This document shows positions 560 to 14,585 of a stretch of DNA of 64,000 nucleotides, in pieces. Each line of letters opens with the position of its first letter. The stretch's first letter is position 1. The translations under genes were made by a program, and so were the position numbers. The notes beneath the pieces were generated by a model. The model had not been told where the DNA came from. It was given only the letters and a program-made list of their open reading frames with translations, and did not search any database. Location: NCBI GenBank assembly GCA_003344405.1, contig NOWV01000129.1, positions 124,001-188,000 on the forward strand, read 5' to 3'. Origin of the DNA: Trichoplax sp. H2. Taxonomy: Eukaryota.

Positions 560-1560
560 ATTGAGTACATTCCTTGTTCGCTTGTTTCCGATGTGAATTC
601 AACGATAGTAAGTCAGAGTCGACGTGGTATAGGTTATGTAGATTGTGAAAACTACCTTGCATGGTATCTAATTTTATCACACAAATAAGGATGTGTACGT
701 CTTGGATGACAACATTAGTCGGTATCTTCTTCTGAATGTGTCTCTCTTTTATGACAACATTAGTCGGTATCTTCTTCTTAATGTGTACCTCTTTAGTGAC
801 AACATTAGTCGGCATCTTCTTCTTAATGTGTACCTCTTTTATAACAACATTAGTCGATGTCTTCTTCATGTGTACCTCATCCATGACAATACTAATCGAT
901 ATCTTCTTGTTCGTTTGTTTCGAATGTAGGTTGAATTACAGCAAGGAACCATGTTCCATACCGTCCTTTCGATTTTAATATCTAGTACTGTACAGGGCTG
1001 ATTTTAAACTGGTTTATTGCAGATGTTATCAAGGGCCAACTTGAACTACATGGATGTTACCGTAAGTCTTTTGTAACTGAGCTTGTTTTGGACGTGAATT
1101 GCAGCAAGAATTCATGTTATACATAATAATTAAGATTTTGATGTTGTGTATAGTACTGATTTTAGACTCATTAGGCTAACTTGAGCTACATGCACGCTGA
1201 ACGAATGGTGTCCCATTTCATAACCAGTAAAATGATATGTCTATCAACTATGACTTCATCAATCGATATCCTCTTAGCTTGTTTTAAACATGATTGGAAT
1301 TGTAGCAAGAATCTATACTACATTCAATACTCAACCTGTTAATGGCATAGACATGATTGATTTAGACATAGGGAATGATATGGCCTATTAACTATGACTC
1401 CATGAATCGATATCTTCTTTAGCTTGTTTTGGACGTGATTTGAGTTGCTGCAAGAGTCTAGTTGTCTATTCAAATGTAGAATGTTGATGGCATTTCCCGG
1501 AGTGATTTTAGACTCGTTTATAGAGGATATTTGTCATGGGTTAACTTAAACCACATGAGT
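560..1560. repeat. Degenerate tandem array (~5 diverged ~170-180 bp units) containing a nested 45-bp minisatellite
   Basis: Motifs TCGATATCTTCTT..GCTTGTTT, TGATTTTAGACT and AACTTGAACTACATG recur near 570, 900, 1080, 1262 and 1407. Confidence 0.7.
691..910. repeat. 45-bp minisatellite, ~5 copies
   Basis: Unit ATGTGTACCTCTTT..TGACAACATTAGTCGGTATCTTCTTCTTA repeats at 691, 736, 781, 826 and ~869. It explains the repetitive ORFs 558..884, 693..929 and 736..978. Confidence 0.95.
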
Positions 1561-3505: not shown

Positions 3506-5944
3506 ATGGCCATTTATGATTTTTACATTTTCCATCGAGAAGGTACTTGCATCTATTACTGCCAATGGCACGGCAAGAAACCGCCATCGCCGTCGGTGAC
3601 AGAGGTAAATGCAGTATGGATAATGTAATATTGATGCTTTAGCCTCTAGTTGAACTCTTCAGCCATAGCGAGTTGGTGATAAGACACGTCAGATCAGCGA
3701 CATACTAAATACGAAGAGCAAATGCATTGGCCAACTTTTGACACCGTTAGACGTATTACTATAAAAGTGTCGCTTAGCATGTTCTACTAGGAGTACAGTA
3801 ATAAGATGATTGGAAAACGACTAACGCTAGAACAACTGGTAGTGAGTGGAAGGGAATGATAGAAAGCAATCTACTGTACTGTGTTGGGCAAGATTTTCAA
3901 CATTTACCCTGCCTTTCCCAGCCAGATAAAGTCTTTTACTGCTATTGCCTGGCCGGTAGAAAATACTTTAAAATAAAATAAAGAAAATGAACCGAGATAC
4001 TGTAAGTGGTACATCGACCATACTGCAAAGACTCCTACAGTATGCCTACTCATATACAACATTGTATAGAAATTGTATATTGTAGCTACTTTGAAATCGA
4101 GAATGATCACATCAGATTGGTCTAGTTCCACAGATTGCAGTGGAGTAGAAATCATTTCTCTAGTTTTTCTGGGGGGTTTCTAAGGGTACTGTGGCTACAT
4201 TTAGGAAGACGCATCTGCAGCCTTAGAAGAACGGCAAATCGAAAATATTGGGATCTACATGGAGAAGACATACTTGTACACTTGAACTAGCCAAGATTGC
4301 GTTTTACATAGTAAATTATAGTGTAGCTACTAGTTCCACAGATTACCAATGGAGTACAGTAGAGATTATTTCTCTAGTTCCTCTAAAAGGTCTGTAGAGT
4401 ACAGTAGCTACATTCAGGAATGACGTATTTGCAGTCACAGGAGAAGAACAAAATCCAAATGTTAGAATCGACATTGAGAAGACATACTGTACAACTGCTA
4501 CATTTGACGAGGCAAGATCACATTTTGGATAGTGAATTATGTTGTAGCTACAGTTATAAGATAACAATAAAGTGGATCAACAATCAAGTTCGATGGCTAA
4601 TCGACCACATCGGATTCGTCTACTTTCACAGATTGCGAATGGAGTACAGTAGCCACATTTAGGAAAACGCATCTGTAGTCACAGGAGACAGGAATTTCAA
4701 ATGTAGGGATCGACGCAGAGAAGATGTACTGTATCACTCTGACACTTGAACTAAGCAAGATCGTATTTTAGATGGTCAATTGTATTGTAGTTGTCTGTCT
4801 CCTTAAAATCGAGCGACTACATCATCTACATTATCACAGATTGAAAATAGAGCACTGTAGCTATAATGCAAACCTACAGTCACAAGACACGAATTGATAA
4901 TATCGTCAAAATCAATAAAACAATCAATCACCAGTGTCACGACAATACGGCAATATAGAATAGATAAACTTTAATGTCAAATTGGCTAAGCTATGGCCTT
5001 GAAAGATAATTATTATAAAACTACTGTGCATACAGTCTCTGCTTTCTCATCTGCATTGCTCAATCGAATGCATTTCAGGAGCATCCTGAAACAATTGAAA
5101 TAAAATTCACATTATTAAATTTTACATCTTTCTTCAACAGCATAATTGCAAGCTGATGTATGGTTTACTCTACTCACTGAAATCATTCGTACTTCGAATC
5201 TCACCCACGGATGGGTAAGTTAGTGCTACTTATTCCTCGATCGATAAAAGATACTCGTGTACATATATATATACAGTACTGTAGTACTAGAATTTGTTAT
5301 ATCTACCTGAAATATAACGGTACTATTGTAATAGTCACTGTAAATTAAAAAAAAATTCAGCTACTTTGTAGCATAACAAAATTAAGGAAAACCAATTTCC
5401 ATGTTAACACATTAAACTTTGATGTGTATGTAATTGAAATATTTTTCATTAGTATAGCAACTAGACGAAAAAATAGAATCACCTTTATTTGTGTGCATTT
5501 TAATTCTTACATCATTTAGCAAGGATCAATTTTCCAGTTACCGGACTAGTAAATATAAGTTAAATTATTATGAAACTCCAAGTGGAATAAAGTTTGTCAT
5601 GACTACCGATTTGGGTGTTGGTAATATTAAAGATATTATGAAAAGTATATACAGAAAGGTAAATCAATTATACAATTGAATAAACATATTAACTTCAGAA
5701 TAAATATAGAATAGGATAAACTACCATTCCTAAGTGATAGATCTGGATACGTAATGCCATTTGGCTATGTCCTATATATTATACATAATAGCTGAATTTT
5801 GTTTCTCTCTTGTTTTAGATTTATGTGGAATATCTAGTCAAGAATCCATTTATTGATGTATCAAAGCCGGTTTCTAGTGAATTATTTGTTTCTAAACTAG
5901 ATGCTTATGTAAAAGAATTACCCTTTTTTGAACCCAAACAATGA
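3506..5944 (+). CDS. TRAPPC1: Trafficking protein particle complex subunit 1 (Bet5); 4 exons: 3506-3604, 5141-5214, 5520-5658, 5819-5944
   Basis: Spliced product MAIYDFYIFHREGTCIYYCQW...KLMYGLLYSLKSFV...YRTSKYKLNYYETPSGIKFVMTTD...IYVEYLVKNP...SELFVSKLDAYVKELPFF matches TRAPPC1 motifs. All introns GT-AG with consistent phases. Confidence 0.96.
3935..4870. repeat. Degenerate ~215-250 bp tandem repeats (~4 copies) in TRAPPC1 intron 1
   Basis: Motifs GTAGCTACATTTAGGAA..CGCATCTG, GAGAAGACATACT, GCAAGATC..TTTT and TCCACAGATTG recur near 4190, 4405, 4650 and 4860. Confidence 0.8.
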
Positions 5945-6496
5945 AATTGGCCTCTACAGTAGTGGTTTGAGAGTAGCATCAATTTAATGATATTGCAATA
6001 TATCTTTGAGAGAGAAAAGAGGATAGACTCCAATAATACTATGTACTGTATCACACTATGTATCTGCTCTAGGACGCTATCCATTTTTGGTGTATTAAAT
6101 TGGAATTACTACTTTGAAGCCTTGTAGACGCATACAGTATTTGAGCACTAAAGTGATTTATTCCAAGCTTGTTACAATAATTGTCGTAGTAGAAAGATTG
6201 GTAATTTGAATGTGCACATTGCTGTGTTTTTAATGGATAGAATGGGACTGATCAAGTGGGTATACATTGTATTAGCATGTTCAATGGTGTTGTATAGTTA
6301 TCTGATGAATGCATCAACAACACAAATGCTTGTGTGTGCGTTCAGTAAGCTGTTTACTGTGAAAAACCTTCATTTTTAATTTTGTACAGTATAGTAAAAT
6401 GAATATACTAAGTTAAGATACGAAAATTGTTTGTTATGATGTTTTACGTGGAATATAAGGTGTAATTTTAATTGTTTATTGATATTCACCAAACGA

Positions 6497-9400
6497 CTAG
6501 TTTGAACAATTATTATACATTGTAAAATAACATTTGGCTAATTTCAAAGCAAGTTTACACAAATTTTCCAGGGCTGTAATGAACAAAAGTAGAAATACTT
6601 TTAAGTGTAATCATACTGCGCTGGGTAGCTTAAAATAAGTATGAATTAATTATATGATGTTCTGTTGATACTTTTTTACAATAAAGTATACTATCAGATA
6701 AGGTAAATAAAATCTTGACATAGTCTATGTACAGTTGAATTTGTCATTACGATAAAACGTGGTTTCAATCCGGCTTGCTAATCTGATGGCACAGTTGCCT
6801 TGATTGCAAAAGACAGAGTGCTAGAAATCATAAATTAAAATTAGCTACTGCTGTAGGGAAAACTAGGATTGCTCGTTTTGCTGTTCCAATATACGATTGG
6901 TAGATATTAGTATTCGAGCGGTCAGCATTGGGCAGTTACAAAAGTAAATTTCTTCCAATAAATGAGGCGGTAATCGAGAAACATCCAATTGGCTGTTATC
7001 AAAACAAGGTGTATACAGATATTCCTCGGTTGTTTTATTGTATCTTACGGTGAATTCCAGTCCTAAATTGATAAATGAAGTAATAGAATAATTTTAAAAT
7101 TATTTTATAAATTATCTTTTACGATCTGATGGCTGTATTATGCATAGTTATCATATGGGTACAACTTCAATGCTAACATACTGCTTTGACAGGATTTATT
7201 TTACTTTGATGGATTTTATTGTCAAACCTTTTAAATCTTGTGATCGAATTTTGAATACTTCTTTGTCCTTATTAACACTACTAAGGGGTAAGGGCTCAAT
7301 ATCTAATCGATTAAACTTTTGATATGCTTTGATAGTCATCGCTTGTTCTTCGATAACGTGCTAAATAAAAATTGTTGATTTTTAATTTATATCTCATCAA
7401 AGTATGGTACCCTTGCTATTTCTAGACAACAAGGATAAGCGTACAAAGATAGGATATTGATTGATTTTATTCTTTCATTCTCACCCTCATCGCTTCAGTG
7501 TCAGGGCTTTCAATTCTACTGTTGCGCAAGTTGTTTAACCTTTCTCTAGCTTTATTTAATTGGTGCTGCAATTTCTTATTTTCATCCACTACAGTTTGCA
7601 TTTTGCTATGGTGACACTTGAAGTTCATTTCAGTTATGATATGCAACCGATGCAGGTGATCATTTAAGAAATTGTATCTTGTTAGCTAGTCCATTTAGTA
7701 TCCAGTATTTAACATACACGTATTAACGTCGCTTATTTCTATTCATGGTAGATGGATTATTACACTGGGTACCGATAACTTACCTCTAACGCGTCTGTTT
7801 GTGAATGATTCTGTTGATCATTATTATGCGCGTTGTCTCGGCTATCTTTTACACCTTGTAATTGCTTTTGCAGGTCTTGCTTTTCATCGATGATACTTTG
7901 TAATTTTTTTCGATATAATTCGATTTTTTCATCAGATACTGTAATAAGCAAAGATTGACTTTCAATTTAATTTGATTCTTTATTATACATTGTGGTATTG
8001 GATCACTAGATTAGATGCGTGTCTACATCTGCGATAGAATACATCTTAATGGAAGTAATTGATGTACAGGATTAGGAAATCCTTTTTTGTTCAGTTCAGT
8101 TCAGTTTGAATATACCTATATACTTATGTACTACTATCCTTTCTGCTACTGCAGTTGATCATTTTTATTTACGATAATAAACACAATATATCAAGTGTGC
8201 TGTATCATATGGCATGAAAGTTTCAACTCAGATCAACATCACCATGATATGACAATTTTCATATCAACATCGTGTGTAAGACAGGAAAAATAAATACTCA
8301 ATACTGCACTTACCTCGACAACGTTCTTGACAATCTAACTCTAATTGATGATAGCGTCGTTCGGGTTCAGTCTCTCTGGTTTCTAAAAGTTTTTCGAATA
8401 ATGCGCGGAAAGTATTTTCATCGGAAGGAATGGATTGATTTTCCTATTAGGTAGAGCATAACATTGCAATGGCTTATCACTTTGTAAGTACTGATTTATT
8501 TTATGCAAGGTGAAAACAGTGACGCACGTTTGACACAGTTTCAATGAGCAATATTGGATTCAAAGGTTCAAAAATGGTTGTATTCCATTTGTACACGTAT
8601 TGATCGTACATTGCATAGACAAATGTGGGATCAAGTGCATTACGACGGAAAAGAGTTACTAGTTTGGGGTATTTTCTCATCTAGTATAAGGCCTTGTATT
8701 AGAATCCTGTTAGTAGGGTTTTGATTGGATACACTTAGGACATAGATGTATTGGTAGTCGTATGACAAGATTACTAATAACATAAGGGCATAGGTTATTC
8801 AATATACAGTACTGTAATGGCAGTGGTACGATGAAATGACTAATGATGTAACAAGAACGACATTGATTGATGTACTGTTTTTTATTTCAGGGATAGATGG
8901 ATTGATGGAAAGCTACGTTCAAAATCAAGATATCATCTTGGTGGTTACAAGTAGGCTTTTCACTTTTATTGCAGAGTGATTTCAAATGAACTCTGTATTG
9001 TGATGATGTAGCGAACAATTTGGACAAGTCTGTCTACTGGTCAAGCGATGCATTGATTCAATAAACAACAATATTGTAAGCATTCATTGGCGTCCTACGT
9101 TGTTGATGGAGGCGATTGGATGATTGATGAATAAGCGAAAGACTATACTGTACGATGAAAAGAAGAGATGATGTTGATCGTTATTGTAGGCTGTGATGTG
9201 TGTTACAGAGTGATTTAAAATTGGAATGATGTATCAGGAATAGCCTAGGACAAGACTTTCTACTATGATGAATGGATGCATCCACTGTGTATTTTTCTAC
9301 ACGATCGTGAGGGAGTTTTGGACTGGGACAGGAAACTGCAGTACTATCAAGGCAACGAAACGTAGGACGAATACTCCAAGTTATTTGAAGCGTATTTCCC

Positions 9401-9529
9401 ACTGACCTTGGTCGACTTTGAAGTTTTCCTTGATTGATGTCTATTTCTTCTTGCCATTGGTGAATTTTCATGACTGGAGTCGAGAGGACGCTTGATCCTA
9501 GTATACCTCCTCGAGCTGCTGGTGGCCAT
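6497..9529 (-). CDS. Csm1/Pcs1-like (monopolin) kinetochore protein, coiled coil + RWD domain; exons ~9529-9407, 8443-8314, 7938-7784, ~7616-7485, 7360-7228, 7062-6940, 6573-6497
   Basis: Basic disordered N-terminus, then LLETRETEPERRYHQLELDCQERCRVSDEKIELYRKKL coiled coil, then IKAYQKFNRLDI..EVFKIRSQD..GLEFTVRY..EYLYTP..SRLPPHLLEEIYFSLENLCKLALKLAK. The last part resembles the Csm1 C-terminal signature as I recall it (IYAP..SKLPEYLFETLSFPLSSLNQFYNKIAK). The exon 3/4 junction is ambiguous (two phase-compatible solutions). Confidence 0.8.
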
Positions 9530-9594
9530 TTTAACAATTTGAATAATTTTGAATTTGACCGCTACCGTTAAAAGTTCCACAATAAATAGAAATG

Positions 9595-9970
9595 CTGCTG
9601 TACAGTGTACAGTACACTAGGGGACTGAGCTTACGATACATTGTACTGTACCTGCAGACCGTGCTAGTACAGTATGCACATTACTGTACAGTACTGTACT
9701 GTGCTGTACAGTACAGTACAGCATTTTTGAAGGATAAATACTGTACTGCAACCACTGTACACTGTACGAGACTGCAACAGAGGGTCGAGACAGACAGGCG
9801 CATAGTACAGTCGACGATGTACTGTACATTGTACTGTACACTGTATACAGTAGTACTGTACAGTACAGTACAAGGATTGTAGGCGTGCTTGTACTGTACT
9901 GTACAGTGTACGTACAGTATGTAGACTACAGTGTACAGTACACTACACTGTACATTGTAATGACAGTGCT
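9595..9970. repeat. Largest GTAC-rich palindromic tract, in the Csm1-like/WWOX divergent promoter
   Basis: Dense CTGTA/TACAG/GTACA units, e.g. palindrome GTACTGTACAGTAC at 9853-9866. It begins ~65 bp upstream of the Csm1-like ATG. Confidence 0.92.
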
Positions 9971-10044: not shown

Positions 10045-10170
10045 TGAATTCTAGTTTGAAAATTGCATCGATTGCTCCTTCATCTATCTTTTTATATCAA
10101 ATGACAGTGAATTCTAGTTTGAAAATTGCATCGATTGCTCCTTCATCTATCTTTTTATATCAAATGACAG
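10045..10170. repeat. Perfect 63-bp tandem duplication
   Basis: TGAATTCTAGTTTGAAAATTGCATCG...TATATCAAATGACAG occurs at 10045-10107 and 10108-10170. Confidence 0.97.
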
Positions 10171-10568: not shown

Positions 10569-13500
10569 ATGCAAGTGTCTAATCTTTATAGCAACGACGC
10601 TGACACAACCAGTTCGGATGCTGATTCAGATCCTGAATTACTACCTGGCTGGGAGAAAAGTAAAACATCGACTGGAAGAACCTTTTACGTTGAGTGAGTT
10701 CTACAACATCGTTATCCATCATTCTACAGCCAGCATAATACAGTACTCCAATACAGACTGCATCATCATTCTTCATAACTTCTTTCGGTGTTCATTCCCT
10801 TGGCCATTTTCATTCTATTCAGGTTGCATCGTCTCACCGGCTATTATCAATCTCATCAGTCTATCATGTAGTTAGGCTGGAGTCCTTTGCTAAATACGCA
10901 TATCATGATACAATTGACTTTTGCTTTTGTAACAACAAACTTTTCCATGCATAATATGTATTGTATTGATCTACAGTTCGACAGCTAACTCAATACTCTA
11001 GTAGCGACTGGATGATTGTTGTTATTCCTTTTGGCTTGGGCTAATCGCTGATGCGTTTAGGCTAGAAATCAATTACTGTACTTATACGAGATTGACTTCT
11101 GCCTTCTTGTACTAGTCATGGCATAACAATCATTTACATCGAATGAATTCCGCTACACCTGCACTGTATTTGCTTTTATCCAAGGTTCTACAGCGAACAC
11201 AATACTCTAGTAAGGACTGCATGATGGTTGTTGTGATAGTCATAGACTTACCCATTTTCATTCCGGTTAGGCTAGGTTGGGCTAGTCTCTGCTACGATGA
11301 TGACGGCATATTTGTACCATGGAATGAGGCATTGATCCGGCTTAAGTCCTTTGCTAATCGGCTTCTGCCCTCGTATACAAATAATGTCGTCGTTGATATG
11401 AATACGATGTGATAATACTATTAGCCTGATTGTCATAATTCTTAAATCAACAAATGTGATAACCCTTAAAGCTTCTCCATGTAGCCAGGATTCTGATTCA
11501 TTTCAATTTAGTGTGCAATTACTTTCATGGTATTAAAGTCATCATGTAATCAAAGAATGTTGTCAATATGCAAAACAAGTACACATCAAATCCACGCATT
11601 AACCCCATGTTCACAGTCAAACTCACTTTGGCTTCTCCTGGTAGCCATAATTCTGTCTTAGTTGCCTTCCCCTTGTTCTCAACCAATCTGTATTACATTA
11701 CTTGTATGCTTGTACTACGTAAAAGTAATTTTGCAGTAATAGGATGTTGTCAAGGCTATTAATGATACTCATATAAATGGACTTTATCTTCATTTCTTTA
11801 TCGTTATAATGTACACGTTTACTATACTGTACAATGCTAACTGAAATACTGTACATGATTGTCTTATTGATAGCCATAATACTCAAACGACACAGTGGGA
11901 ACATCCGCAACGTAGCCACAAGAAACCGCATCAAAAGATCGGTAATGCACCATATACTAATGCTAGTGTAATTATGCTTTAATGTTGACAATCTTCACAC
12001 ATCAAGAAATCATAATAGAGCACTCTAGTTGCACTGTATGTTGTATTCATTCAATCATCCGTTGCTTAAGTTAATCATGGATGATCATCTTAGTCCATGC
12101 CTTATGCAATTCTCTTGTTGCACCGTATGTTGTGTTCATAAAATCGTCCATGGTATCAACTTACTGCTATTCTGTAGGTTACTCGTTCTTTGTGTTAATA
12201 AAGGTTAGCCATGCCAATTAGCAATTCAATAATTCCAATTCTAATCTCAGATTTACCATTTGGCTGGATTCAAATCAAGAACGAAAATGGTACAATTCTC
12301 TATGTCAAGTAAGTTGTTCATTAAAGTGTTACTCCAAAGTCATGATAGAAATGAACTACTGTAATCATAATCAATACGATTCCAAAGAGTTGATGCATTT
12401 TAATACTGTTAGAGTATGCAATAAAATTATTTAAATTAGGTAGCCATCAAGATATTCTTGTAATAATTTCGGTAATCGCATTTCAACAATCTTATTTAGT
12501 CAAAGAAATCAAAAGAAAACCTATGTAGATCCAAGATTAGCTTTTCGAATGAAGAAAAATCGCCGAGTATTTGATGCTGTTTCAACATCAATGGACGTCC
12601 TACAGGGTAGAAACTTATCCGGTGGAATTGCACTAATAACTGGAGCTACTAGCGGAATTGGTTAGTTTGTGGTCTTACTAGGTCTAAAATTAGTAATTTT
12701 ATTCGATTTGCTGCTTTTGAGTAGTTATGAGCCCTTTGTATATACGCGTAAAGTGTATATAACCTTAAAATCTCAATTTAAAGCTAGTACATCTGATCTA
12801 GTATAAATTTAGGAAAAATTTTAATTCATTACGATAGATAAGGGAATCATGGCTTATATTATTGTTATTTAGCATATAAAATTATGAATAATTCGTATTT
12901 ATTTCCATGTATGACAATGAATACCGTCAATGGTTATACACACACAATCAATTAGTATGTTATTACTTCATAAAGACGTAGACTACTGGGCAAATAGATA
13001 ACTTCAAAATTGATTAGTAAATTCAACATATCGGATACATGCTAAGTGCAGCCTAAGCTTATTTTTATCATGTAAAACTTGACTACACTCATAGATTTAT
13101 TAGAATATTGCTGCTCGATCGATACTGGTATTACATTCTAGCTCTGATATCATTGCTAGTAAATGATTGATTATTGTCTTATAGCCAAATTGCTGATCAA
13201 TGTTTAGGATTTGAGACCGCTCGAGCTCTCGCACTGCATGGGGCTTTAGTCATAATGGGCTGTCATGATATCGTAAAAGGATCTATCGCAGCAAAGAAGA
13301 TTACAAAAGAAGAGGTTCATCTACTCTTTAAATTACGAACAATTAAGATATGAGACCTATTCGTACAAGTTAAAAAAATGAGGCAGTTACCCATAATTTC
13401 TATTTGCAAATACTTCCCTTCTACTACTGTACATAATTATAGCAAGACTTAACTTTTTATATTTTCTGCCCTAATTATTCTGTGTTTTCATAGCCTCTGG

Positions 13501-14585
13501 CGAAGATTGACGTTATAGAAGTAGATCTATCGTCTTTAAAGAGTATAGCATGCTTAGCTGATGAAGTTTTAAAAAAATACAGGTCGGCAACTTTATGGGA
13601 TTACTACGTGAAAAATTACCTTGACTAAGGTCTGATCAATCTTGTATTACTTGTATCATTCAGGCAATTACATGTAATCATTTGTAATGCTGGTGTATTG
13701 GGATTACCGTGGAGACTAACTACGGACGAATTGGAATACACTTTTACTGTGAATTATATTGGTCATTTTTATCTCGTAAAATTGTTAACTGAGCTTCTTA
13801 TTTCCTCCTCGCCGGCAAGAGTTGTTGTTATTTCTTCTGAGTCTCACAGGTCTGCTGAATTATGCTTGTCAAACATTCACATATTATCGCATTAAGAATT
13901 GACGTCTTTTGCATTGCAATTTCATTTTAGATTTCCCACTACTGATGGAAGTTCGTTTAATGTGGAAAATATTCTACCTTCAAAACAGCAATTTATCCCA
14001 ATGGAGGCTTATAATCAATCCAAATTATGTGGAATATTATTTAGTAACGAATTCAATCGTAAATATTCATGCTACGGTGTGACGTCGAATGCGGTTCACC
14101 CAGGCAATTTATTGCCAACTTCGCTATGTCGAAATTCATGGTTTTATACAATTTTATTTTTATTGGCTAGGCCTTTTGCTAAGTCTACTGTAAGTAGCAT
14201 TGCTAATGAATGATATAGATGTATTCGATATTTCGCAGTACGCTAAAGTTATAAGAACCTCAACAAATTTAATATATTAAGATCAACAAGCTTGCTACTA
14301 CTCGTATCCGTATTCCACAATTAGTATAATTTTATAATATGAAATTTGATGGATAGTTTATTTCTCTCGTTTTAATTGTTATAATCATTTTAGGTGCAAG
14401 GTGCTGCTACGACTACTTTTTGTGCAGCAGCTAGAGAGTTGAATGGTGTTGGCGGTTCTTATTTTAATAATTGCCAACGCTGTGATCCATCGCCTGAATC
14501 TCAAAATGAAGAGTTAGCAAGAGCTCTATGGAAATATACTGAAAGTTTATTAAGCTGTAGAACGATTCGGTTACTTCCTCAATAA
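10569..14585 (+). CDS. WWOX: WW domain-containing oxidoreductase; exons ~10569-10693, 11874-11941, 12251-12308, 12500-12660, 13208-13314, 13494-13582, 13664-13848, 13931-14189, 14394-14585
   Basis: WW1 ([30 protein letters not shown]), WW2 ([16 protein letters not shown]) and an SDR domain with [23 protein letters not shown], catalytic AYNQSK and QGAATT. Confidence 0.97.

What the first reader, a model, noticed from the sequence alone, without database searches (positions are those of the whole stretch)
6497..9529. Csm1/Pcs1-like monopolin subunit in an animal genome
Seen: seven short exons splice into a ~290-aa protein with a basic disordered head, a coiled coil beginning LLETRETEPERRY..QERCRVSDEKI, and a C-terminal domain ending YLYTP..SRLPPHLLEEIYFSLENLCKLALKLAK. 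Established: Csm1/Pcs1 is the coiled-coil+RWD core of fungal monopolin, which crosslinks kinetochores via Dsn1/CENP-C and acts at rDNA; it is not part of vertebrate, fly or worm kinetochores. Inference: this animal keeps a monopolin-like module. The ORF track shows only fragments, so automated annotation could miss it. Occurrence in some non-bilaterians may already be reported.
Basis: partly seen in the sequence, partly recalled or inferred. Interest (0 to 1): 0.82.

Follow-up and report, generated by a model that had tools for sequence, protein, structure and literature searches.

The report
Probable Csm1-like gene in Trichoplax
This is a real, expressed six-exon Trichoplax gene whose protein probably belongs to the Csm1/Pcs1 (monopolin) kinetochore family, which most animals have lost, but no standard sequence or structure test could confirm that.

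Summary
The gene is real and lies on the minus strand. It is already annotated as a hypothetical protein in Trichoplax adhaerens (246 aa) and Trichoplax sp. H2 (290 aa). RNA contigs from 4 runs of 4 studies confirm five GT..AG introns. The window's RNA-supported translation equals the H2 protein exactly.

All 4 runs read straight through its proposed donor and acceptor. The protein instead ends ...EEIYFCNCPMLTARILISTNRILEQQNEQS at TAG 6865-6863.

The layout holds: a basic head, a long coiled coil, and a C-terminal alpha/beta domain of about 110 aa.

Csm1 membership is likely but not shown.
- Negative or inconclusive: Pfam Csm1 gave no match even at E<=10. phmmer against 1.84 billion proteins and against PDB sequences found no Csm1 relative. 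My two single-sequence AlphaFold models were too poor for fold search.
- Positive: ESM Atlas feature and structure look-alikes point to Csm1/TITAN9 clusters, for the head and for the coiled coil. A homodimer prediction passed (0.73, best control 0.00).

Plowman et al. 2019 already report Csm1 in Nematostella and Amphimedon. At best this is a new, very diverged placozoan member of a known family.

The parts
9407..9529 (-). Coding exon 1 (ATG 9529-9527), aa 1-41. Basic, Ser/Thr-rich head, predicted disordered.
   Evidence: Sequence. Joint 9407|8443 in 3 of 4 RNA runs. Residues 1-45 hold 12 K+R, 3 D+E and 14 S+T. No helix and low pLDDT in residues 1-49.
8314..8443 (-). Coding exon 2, aa 42-84. 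Start of the coiled coil (LLETRETEPERRY...).
   Evidence: GT..AG borders. Joint 8314|7938 in 4 of 4 runs. Helix 50-121 in the AF2 model.
7784..7938 (-). Coding exon 3, aa 85-136. Coiled coil. The only part with relatives outside Trichoplax.
   Evidence: Joints in 4 of 4 runs. P0003 and P0004 are 50% and 66% identical over aa 77-130 and 84-124. This block has the highest pLDDT, 79-92.
7485..7616 (-). Coding exon 4, aa 137-180. Second coiled-coil segment. Missing from the T. adhaerens gene model.
   Evidence: Joints 7784|7616 and 7485|7360 in 4 of 4 runs. P0001 equals the window translation without this exon.
7228..7360 (-). Coding exon 5, aa 181-224. Neck helix and the first strands of the C-terminal head.
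   Evidence: Joint 7228|7062 in 4 of 4 runs. Helix 176-197 followed by strands. In-register contacts 183-183, 186-186 and 190-190 in the dimer prediction.
6863..7062 (-). Coding part of the last exon, aa 225-290, plus stop TAG 6865-6863. Rest of the beta-meander, the YLYTP motif, LPPHLLEEIYF and the C-terminal helix.
   Evidence: Contigs are unbroken across 6940 in 4 of 4 runs. Translation equals P0002.
6300..6862 (-). 3' untranslated part of the last exon. It runs on below 6300, the edge of the stretch laid.
   Evidence: Contigs cover 6300-7061 in X14, X6 and X8 (table 8).
6497..6573 (-). An open frame inside the 3' UTR with an AG in front of it. Not seen spliced.
   Evidence: No joint 6940->6573 in 0 of 4 runs. 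Contigs cross both proposed sites unspliced.

Best explanation
The locus encodes a 290-aa Trichoplax nuclear protein (TrispH2_008118 / TRIADDRAFT_61676). It is most likely a strongly diverged orthologue of Csm1/Pcs1, the coiled-coil plus single-RWD core of monopolin.

Shown:
- It is transcribed and spliced from six coding exons.
- It has a basic Ser/Thr-rich head (aa 1-45), long helices at 50-121, 132-169 and 176-197, and a C-terminal alpha/beta head of about 110 aa. The head is predicted as a four-strand beta-meander followed by helices.

Predicted in silico:
- Two chains pair in parallel and in register along the neck helix. Each head packs on the partner's neck.

Inferred from the family (PMC6823300):
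- The paired heads would each offer a hydrophobic cavity for a short acidic-FxF-basic motif at the N-terminus of the Mis12-complex protein Dsn1.
- The dimer, perhaps bridged into a higher-order clamp by an unidentified Lrs4/Mde4-like partner, would tie neighbouring microtubule-binding units or kinetochores together, or recruit condensin or SUMO-protease-type clients to centromeres or rDNA.
- A mitotic Pcs1/TITAN9-like role seems more likely to me than a budding-yeast-type meiosis-I role, because Mam1 is reported only in point-centromere fungi.
For: - Gene and splicing.
- Atlas features, head 176-290: ranks 1-3 and 5 are clusters carrying PF12539 (0.89 with 188 of 256 shared features, then 0.87, 0.82, 0.78). 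The first other family is MAD at 0.78.
- Atlas structure, head: row 1 is a cluster with 89% PF12539, TM 0.76 over 106 aligned residues. Rows 3-5 are a 12% PF12539 cluster (0.71), a cluster named Csm1/Pcs1 C-terminal domain (0.71) and DUF7806 (0.69). Row 2 (0.64) is an unnamed Ascomycota cluster. Rows 6-10 are bacterial clusters at TM 0.45-0.54.
- DUF7806 is carried by 87% of a cluster named TITAN9 family. TITAN9 is the Arabidopsis Csm1-like kinetochore protein (PMC12362390, passages).
- Atlas features, coiled coil 42-180: 0.83 and 0.83 for Csm1 clusters, 0.82 for TITAN9.
- Homodimer of residues 45-290: ipSAE 0.73, best of 3 controls 0.00. Partner pLDDT at least 71 and runs agree in at least 64% of contacts. 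The tool's calibration: 21 of 30 solved one-chain pairs and 0 of 23 solved single chains reached the mark. On eukaryotes it was 17 of 29, but only 1 of 7 with no older solved relative.
- Among kinetochore RWD proteins, single-RWD homodimers are Mad1 and Csm1 (PMC6601020, passages). Mad1's Pfam family is absent here.
- The predicted order helix, four strands, Y-x-P, helices fits the UBC/RWD description in PMC6601020.
- Size and layout resemble S. pombe Pcs1, which has 261 aa with its head at 125-261 (PMC6823300).
Against: - No Pfam PF12539 or PF18504 match at E<=10 in three scans: 0 of 7 exons, 0 of 2 proteins, 0 of 1 domain.
- phmmer against 1.84 billion representatives gave 3 hits at E<=0.001: the T. 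adhaerens copy and two short fragments that match the coiled coil only.
- Word-based searches found only the two Trichoplax proteins or nothing.
- PDB sequence searches found only GldN/PorN, at E 0.17-0.78, and no Csm1.
- My AF2 models are poor: mean pLDDT 54 with the head below 50, and 48 for the head alone.
- Foldseek on the head-only model gave nothing at E<=0.001. Its weak rows include CENP-O/P-type chains (6qld_O, 8ow1_O, 6nuw_C, 6qlf_P; E 0.12-0.47, TM about 0.27-0.31), not Csm1.
- All Atlas scores are below the tool's own bar. Feature scores under 0.9 are 'a lead only', and every structure row is marked 'under the bar: name no family'.
- The tool states that a third of shuffled proteins get a first hit of 0.8 or more.
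- The two Atlas calls may not be independent, if a part's features carry context from the whole protein.
- The dimer pass may come from the model's memory of solved coiled-coil dimers. It does not separate Csm1 from Mad1.
Confidence: 0.62

Rival explanations
1. It is a kinetochore-type coiled-coil plus RWD protein, but not a Csm1 orthologue. For example, a short Mad1-like paralogue, or a very diverged Spc24/Spc25 or CENP-O/P-type subunit.
For: [quoted passage not shown]
- The MAD family appears at 0.78 in the Atlas features.
- Weak Foldseek rows hit CENP-O/P chains at E 0.12-0.47.
- An earlier scan note (e1-554612) records a Mad1/Csm1 confusion in a red alga.
Against: - Csm1 clusters rank above MAD in features: 0.89, 0.87, 0.82 against 0.78.
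- No Mad1, Spc24/25 or CENP-O/P cluster is among the 10 structure rows shown.
- No Pfam hit to MAD, Spc24, Spc25, CENP-O or CENP-P at E<=10.
- The Foldseek rows rest on a model with mean pLDDT 48 and TM about 0.27.
- The predicted homodimer argues against the Spc24/25 or CENP-O/P heterodimer types.
- At 290 aa the protein is far shorter than Mad1 proteins. The Mad1 length is recalled, not from a call.
Confidence: 0.17
2. It is a placozoan-specific coiled-coil protein whose C-terminal domain is unrelated to RWD/Csm1. The language-model look-alikes would be chance or composition effects.
For: - No sequence homologue outside placozoans in 1.84 billion representatives.
- No Pfam family.
- Every Atlas score is below its stated bar.
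- The tool says shuffled proteins often reach 0.8, and that a third of them also show 10 of 10 family agreement.
Against: - Chance would have to pick the same small family three ways: head features, head structure (TM 0.76 over 106 of 115 residues, clearly above the bacterial rows at 0.54 or less), and coiled-coil features.
- 188 shared features exceed the 170 that the tool gives as typical of true family members.
- Coiled coil, homodimer and single head match the family's architecture.
Confidence: 0.16
3. The reader's seven-exon form (exon 6 spliced at 6940 to 6573-6497) is a real, functional isoform with a different C-terminal helix.
For: The sites are GT (6939-6938) and AG (6575-6574) and the frame stays open to TAG 6499-6497. 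Contigs drop rare variants (text).
Against: No such joint in 0 of 4 runs, and all 4 cover both sites unspliced. Neither database gene model uses it. The read-through tail already supplies a C-terminal helix, predicted at 279-288.
Confidence: 0.05

Closest known systems
S. pombe Pcs1 / S. cerevisiae Csm1 (monopolin core; Pfam PF12539 Csm1, PF18504 Csm1_N)
   Same: N-terminal coiled coil plus one C-terminal alpha/beta (RWD-like) head. Predicted parallel homodimer with paired heads. Size close to Pcs1, which has 261 aa with its head at 125-261 (PMC6823300). Nearest Atlas clusters by features and by predicted structure.
   Different: No Pfam or phmmer similarity. An extra basic Ser/Thr-rich head of about 45 aa. 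The coiled coil is longer and broken into three helices. The Dsn1-binding cavity, an Lrs4/Mde4 partner and localisation are all untested.
Arabidopsis TITAN9 (Csm1-like; Pfam DUF7806) and Dictyostelium Cenp-68
   Same: These are highly diverged non-fungal Csm1-like proteins that needed sensitive searches to find (PMC6823300, PMC12362390). A TITAN9-family cluster scores 0.82 with the coiled coil. A DUF7806 cluster gives TM 0.69 with the head. TTN9 interacts with itself and sits at centromeres through the cell cycle (PMC12362390, passages). That is the kind of mitotic role I infer here.
   Different: Different kingdom. No direct sequence match was obtained. No functional data exist for the Trichoplax protein.
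Csm1 orthologues reported in Nematostella vectensis and Amphimedon queenslandica (Plowman et al. 2019, PMC6823300)
   Same: Non-bilaterian animals that keep Csm1 while most metazoans have lost it. The Trichoplax gene would be the placozoan counterpart.
   Different: I could not obtain those sequences, so no comparison was made. The paper's main text does not name Trichoplax (0 occurrences).
Mad1 C-terminal domain (single-RWD homodimer; Pfam PF05557 MAD)
   Same: Coiled-coil homodimer ending in a single RWD head (PMC6601020). The MAD cluster is the best non-Csm1 family in the Atlas features, at 0.78.
   Different: It ranks lower than the three best Csm1-bearing clusters (0.89, 0.87, 0.82) and level with a fourth at 0.78. 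It is absent from the 10 structure rows shown. No PF05557 hit at E<=10. This protein is much shorter than Mad1; the Mad1 length is recalled.

Membership tests
Csm1/Pcs1 (PF12539, PF18504) | Match to the Pfam Csm1 C-terminal domain profile at or above the gathering score (22.6 bits) | tested here: not met
   No PF12539 or PF18504 row at E<=10 for 7 exon translations, P0002 and P0001, or residues 176-290. Cut-off value.
Csm1/Pcs1 (PF12539, PF18504) | Architecture: N-terminal coiled coil followed by one C-terminal globular alpha/beta head | tested here: met
   AF2 helices at 50-121, 132-169 and 176-197, then four strands and helices. Confidence in the head is low (pLDDT below 50 to 68). The ESMFold2 dimer has pLDDT 72-73.
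Csm1/Pcs1 (PF12539, PF18504) | Parallel homodimer through the coiled coil, with paired heads | tested here: met
   ipSAE 0.73 against a best control of 0.00. In-register contacts 183-183, 186-186, 190-190. Head residues 201-203, 216-230 and 267-280 touch the partner's neck. This is a prediction only, may be from memory, and is shared with Mad1.
Csm1/Pcs1 (PF12539, PF18504) | Head fold superposes on solved Csm1 structures better than on other RWDs | tested here: inconclusive
Csm1/Pcs1 (PF12539, PF18504) | Conserved hydrophobic cavity on the head (Sc L161 / Sp I241 position) that binds Dsn1-N/Box 1 | not tested
   No tool-given Csm1 sequence was available to align. From recall only, the LPPHLLEEIYF stretch resembles the region around that residue, which would put I263 there. 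This is a lead, not a test.
Csm1/Pcs1 (PF12539, PF18504) | A Dsn1/Mis13 with the N-terminal acidic-FxF-basic motif in the same genome (co-evolves with Csm1, r = 0.799 in PMC6823300) | not tested
Csm1/Pcs1 (PF12539, PF18504) | Lrs4/Mde4-type partner bridging two dimers into a V | not testable with these tools
   Lrs4 orthologues are not detectable outside fungi even by the specialists (PMC6823300).
Csm1/Pcs1 (PF12539, PF18504) | Centromere/kinetochore or nucleolar localisation | not testable with these tools
   Needs microscopy.
Mad1 (PF05557) | Match to the MAD profile; long coiled coil with a Mad2-interaction motif | tested here: not met
   No PF05557 row at E<=10. Atlas features 0.78, rank 4. 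The Mad2-interaction motif was not examined.
Spc24 / Spc25 / CENP-O / CENP-P kinetochore RWDs | Match to the family profiles; heterodimeric partner | tested here: inconclusive
   No Pfam row at E<=10. Weak Foldseek rows to CENP-O/P chains at E 0.12-0.47, on a model with pLDDT 48. A homodimer is predicted instead.

The most novel reading that the evidence does not exclude
Placozoa keep a working Csm1-Dsn1 kinetochore clamp, in a form so diverged that profile HMMs cannot see it. Part of the reported 'loss of Csm1 in most metazoans' could then be a detection failure. Language-model or structure-based searches might recover hidden Csm1-like proteins in further animal lineages, which would re-date the loss.
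Probability: 0.2. Interest if true: 0.6.

Novelty: new member of a known kind. Interest (0 to 1): 0.36.

Why it matters
[quoted passage not shown] Among animals it is reported only from a cnidarian and a sponge (PMC6823300). A placozoan copy would add a third non-bilaterian lineage. That would favour loss on the bilaterian stem rather than scattered early losses.

It would also offer a small, culturable animal in which to ask what the module does in an animal, and whether that role is mitotic.

There is a method point too. The case shows how far kinetochore RWD proteins can drift beyond HMM detection.

The practical yield for annotation is modest. The T. adhaerens model lacks an expressed exon, and both models could carry a 'Csm1-like (putative)' note.

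Tried and rejected
- Pfam on single exons, full proteins and the head: no Csm1.
- PDB sequence search with the whole protein and with the head: only GldN/PorN at E 0.17-0.78, taken as chance.
- Exhaustive phmmer: no relative beyond placozoan fragments.
- Three word-based searches: exon 6 with longer targets, the head region, and the last-exon coding part with near lengths. They returned only the two Trichoplax proteins, or nothing. No alignment could therefore be built for profile comparison or for AlphaFold.
- AF2 on the full length and on the head alone, both single-sequence and both low confidence. Foldseek/PDB and VIA wide on the head model gave only weak, scattered rows. I draw no conclusion from them about fold or family.
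- Whole-genome search for PF12539: no genome is held for this window.
- I tried to get a tool-given yeast Csm1 through the 'control genomes' of the genome search. I fetched bacterial 16S loci for a handle and searched one with PF12539. The only control genome named was a bacterium, and one of the 14 rang, below the cut-off. This was a dead end.
- Corbett et al. 2010 (PMC2955198) is not held.
- No paper in the library names TRIADDRAFT_61676 or TrispH2_008118. None of the papers listed that mention Csm1 or monopolin also mentions Trichoplax, except one on kinetoplastid kinetochores with a single mention of each, which I did not open.
- The scan has no earlier notes on this genome.
- Minor joint 8442->8527 in one run (X6, depth 4.3): treated as noise.
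Full report
**What is in the sequence**

On the minus strand between 9529 and 6863, six open stretches join through GT..AG borders into an 873-nt reading frame. The exons are 9529-9407, 8443-8314, 7938-7784, 7616-7485, 7360-7228 and 7062-6863. The stop is TAG 6865-6863.

A search with the 40 aa of exon 6 found two database proteins, each 100% identical over the query, among 4 candidates:
- TRIADDRAFT_61676 of Trichoplax adhaerens (P0001, 246 aa)
- TrispH2_008118 of Trichoplax sp. H2 (P0002, 290 aa)

So the window is placozoan and the gene is already annotated, as 'uncharacterized' or 'hypothetical', with no precomputed Pfam domain. The six-exon translation of the window equals P0002 letter for letter. 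Without exon 4 it equals P0001.

**RNA evidence**

I laid the contigs of four runs from four studies on 6300-9700. X7 is RNA on record; X8, X14 and X6 are guessed RNA.
- Joints 8314|7938, 7784|7616, 7485|7360 and 7228|7062 stand in 4 of 4 runs.
- Joint 9407|8443 stands in 3 of 4 runs. In X7, contigs cover parts of intron 1 instead.
- All skipped parts end CT..AC on the plus strand, which is GT..AG for the gene.
- Exon 4, absent from the T. adhaerens model, is present in all four runs.

No run shows a joint from 6940 to 6573. Contigs run unbroken from 7061 to 6300 in X14, X6 and X8. In X7, separate contigs cross both proposed sites unspliced. Contigs can hide rare isoforms, so a minor form is not excluded.

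The main product ends ...LPPHLLEEIYFCNCPMLTARILISTNRILEQQNEQS. The quoted '...SLENLCKLALKLAK' lies in the 3' UTR.

**Anatomy of the protein**

- Residues 1-45 are basic and Ser/Thr-rich: 12 K+R, 3 D+E and 14 S+T. They are predicted without structure.
- Single-sequence AlphaFold gives helices at 50-121, 132-169 and 176-197. The best confidence is at 81-120.
- After that comes a beta-meander of four strands, at about 199-204, 213-220, 226-233 and 238-245. Then Y-T-P (241-243), then short helices and a C-terminal helix at 279-288.
- Confidence in this head is low, with pLDDT below 50 to 68.
- The order helix, meander, Y-x-P, helices fits the UBC/RWD description given in PMC6601020 (Fig. 2 legend, passage read).

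**Tests of the Csm1 reading that failed or gave nothing**

- Pfam, with E allowed up to 10, shows no Csm1 (PF12539) or Csm1_N (PF18504) row. This holds for 7 exon translations, for P0002 and P0001, and for residues 176-290. Only sub-threshold coiled-coil families appear.
- phmmer of P0002 against 1.84 billion representatives gives 3 hits at E<=0.001. They are P0001 and two short ORF fragments, P0003 and P0004, 50% and 66% identical. The fragments match the exon-3 coiled coil only and look like single exons from other placozoan DNA.
- Two further word-based searches, with the head region and with the last-exon coding part, found only the Trichoplax proteins or nothing.
- PDB sequence searches give only bacterial GldN/PorN at E 0.17-0.78.
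- With no relatives I could build no alignment. Both AlphaFold jobs ran single-sequence and came out poor, with mean pLDDT 54 and 48.
- Foldseek against the PDB gave nothing at E<=0.001. Among its weak rows are CENP-O/P-type chains at E 0.12-0.47 with TM about 0.27-0.31.
- I treat these fold searches as uninformative.

**Evidence that points to Csm1**

The ESM Atlas holds this exact protein.

For residues 176-290:
- The three nearest clusters by language-model features all carry PF12539 in part of their members. Scores are 0.89 with 188 of 256 features shared (27% of members), 0.87 (16%) and 0.82 (38%).
- The best other family is MAD, at 0.78.
- By the Atlas's own predicted structure, the nearest model belongs to a cluster with 89% PF12539, at TM 0.76 over 106 aligned residues.
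- Row 2 is an unnamed ascomycete cluster (0.64). Rows 3-5 are a 12% PF12539 cluster (0.71), a cluster named Csm1/Pcs1 C-terminal domain (0.71) and DUF7806 (0.69).
- Rows 6-10 are bacterial clusters at TM 0.45-0.54.

For the coiled coil alone, residues 42-180:
- The features again land on Csm1 clusters (0.83 and 0.83).
- They also land on a 'TITAN9 family' cluster at 0.82, 87% of which carries DUF7806. This identifies DUF7806 with the plant Csm1-like protein TITAN9 (PMC12362390).

The tool's own cautions apply:
- Feature scores under 0.9 are leads.
- Every structure row is 'under the bar'.
- A third of shuffled proteins get a first hit of 0.8 or more.
- The behaviour was not measured for parts of proteins.
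- The two calls may not be independent.

**Homodimer prediction**

Two copies of residues 45-290 scored ipSAE 0.73, against 0.00 for the best of 3 controls.
- Partner pLDDT was at least 71, and runs agreed in at least 64% of contacts.
- The tool's calibration: 21 of 30 solved one-chain pairs and 0 of 23 solved single chains reach the mark. On eukaryotes 17 of 29 reach it, but only 1 of 7 without an older solved relative, so the pass may be from memory.
- The contacts are parallel and in register along the neck helix (183-183, 186-186, 190-190).
- Head residues 201-203, 216-230 and 267-280 pack on the partner's neck.

Per PMC6601020, kinetochore proteins with a single RWD that form homodimers are Mad1 and Csm1. 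There is no MAD profile match here.

**Most likely mechanism**

Shown: the transcript, the splicing, and the helix-rich plus alpha/beta layout.

Predicted: the parallel homodimer.

Inferred from the family (PMC6823300, passages): each head has a hydrophobic cavity that binds the N-terminal Dsn1-N/Box 1 motif of the Mis12-complex subunit Dsn1. Dimers, bridged in fungi by Lrs4/Mde4, would cross-link kinetochore units or recruit other clients.

A mitotic Pcs1/TITAN9-like role seems more likely to me than budding-yeast-style meiosis-I mono-orientation, because Mam1 is confined to point-centromere fungi (same paper). The basic N-terminal head has no counterpart that I know of in fungal Csm1 and may serve nuclear import or regulation. 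That is inference only.

**Comparison with what is known, and novelty**

Plowman et al. [quoted passage not shown] The TITAN9 paper repeats 'other eukaryotes except most animals'.

Trichoplax is not named in the main text of these papers (0 occurrences in the listings). No paper in the library names the two locus tags.

I file this as a probable new, unusually diverged member of a known family. One defining test was not met (the Pfam profile), two were met only by prediction, and the functional ones are untested. The scan met a related Mad1-versus-Csm1 question before on other DNA, a red alga (note e1-554612).

**Verdict**

- Confidence that this is a Csm1/Pcs1-family protein: about 0.6.
- Interest is moderate to low.

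Noticed in passing
window 5458-5944 (+): Two exon-like frames match Pfam Sybindin (PF04099) at profile positions 63-107 and 107-139, with E 5.5e-10 and 2.4e-08. This is a TRAPP-complex subunit gene. It converges on the 3' end of the Csm1-like gene, whose RNA contigs run on below 6300.
   Followed up: partly
window 9667-9968 and 2697-2740: Imperfect arrays of a 10-12-base unit (GTACAGTACT / TGTACTGTACAG) sit directly upstream of the gene's 5' end, and again near 2700. RNA contigs of all four runs break here, with many loose ends and small inserted stretches at 9598-9700. This looks like a dispersed simple repeat that confuses assembly.
   Followed up: partly
window 10045-10170: A perfect (100%) tandem duplication of a 63-base unit, so probably recent.
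   Followed up: no
window 691-908 (ORFs 558-935 on both strands): A 45-base unit repeated 4.9 times at 82% match. It gives a repeated 15-residue peptide in the open frames. Whether it is coding was not examined.
   Followed up: no
window 12444-14213 (+): Exon-like frames of a short-chain dehydrogenase. 13629-13895 matches adh_short (PF00106) at E 8.2e-07. 12444-12665 ends in a GxxxGxG-type nucleotide-binding motif.
   Followed up: partly
window 6572 and 6784: All four RNA runs read C where the window has G (6572) and C where it has T (6784). Both sites lie in the 3' UTR. These are probably strain or lineage differences between the window's source and the sequenced animals.
   Followed up: no
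window 8314-8563 and 8886-9470: In run X7 only, contigs cover parts of intron 1. The cause is either intron retention or pre-mRNA, or genomic DNA in that library. One X7 contig also shows an 'opposite strands' joint at 8563/8599.
   Followed up: no
proteins P0003, P0004 (not in the window): These short database ORFs are 50-66% identical to exon 3 only and are preceded by intron-like residues. They look like prokaryote-style gene calls on genomic contigs of other placozoan lineages. They show that exon 3 is the best conserved part of the gene.
   Followed up: partly
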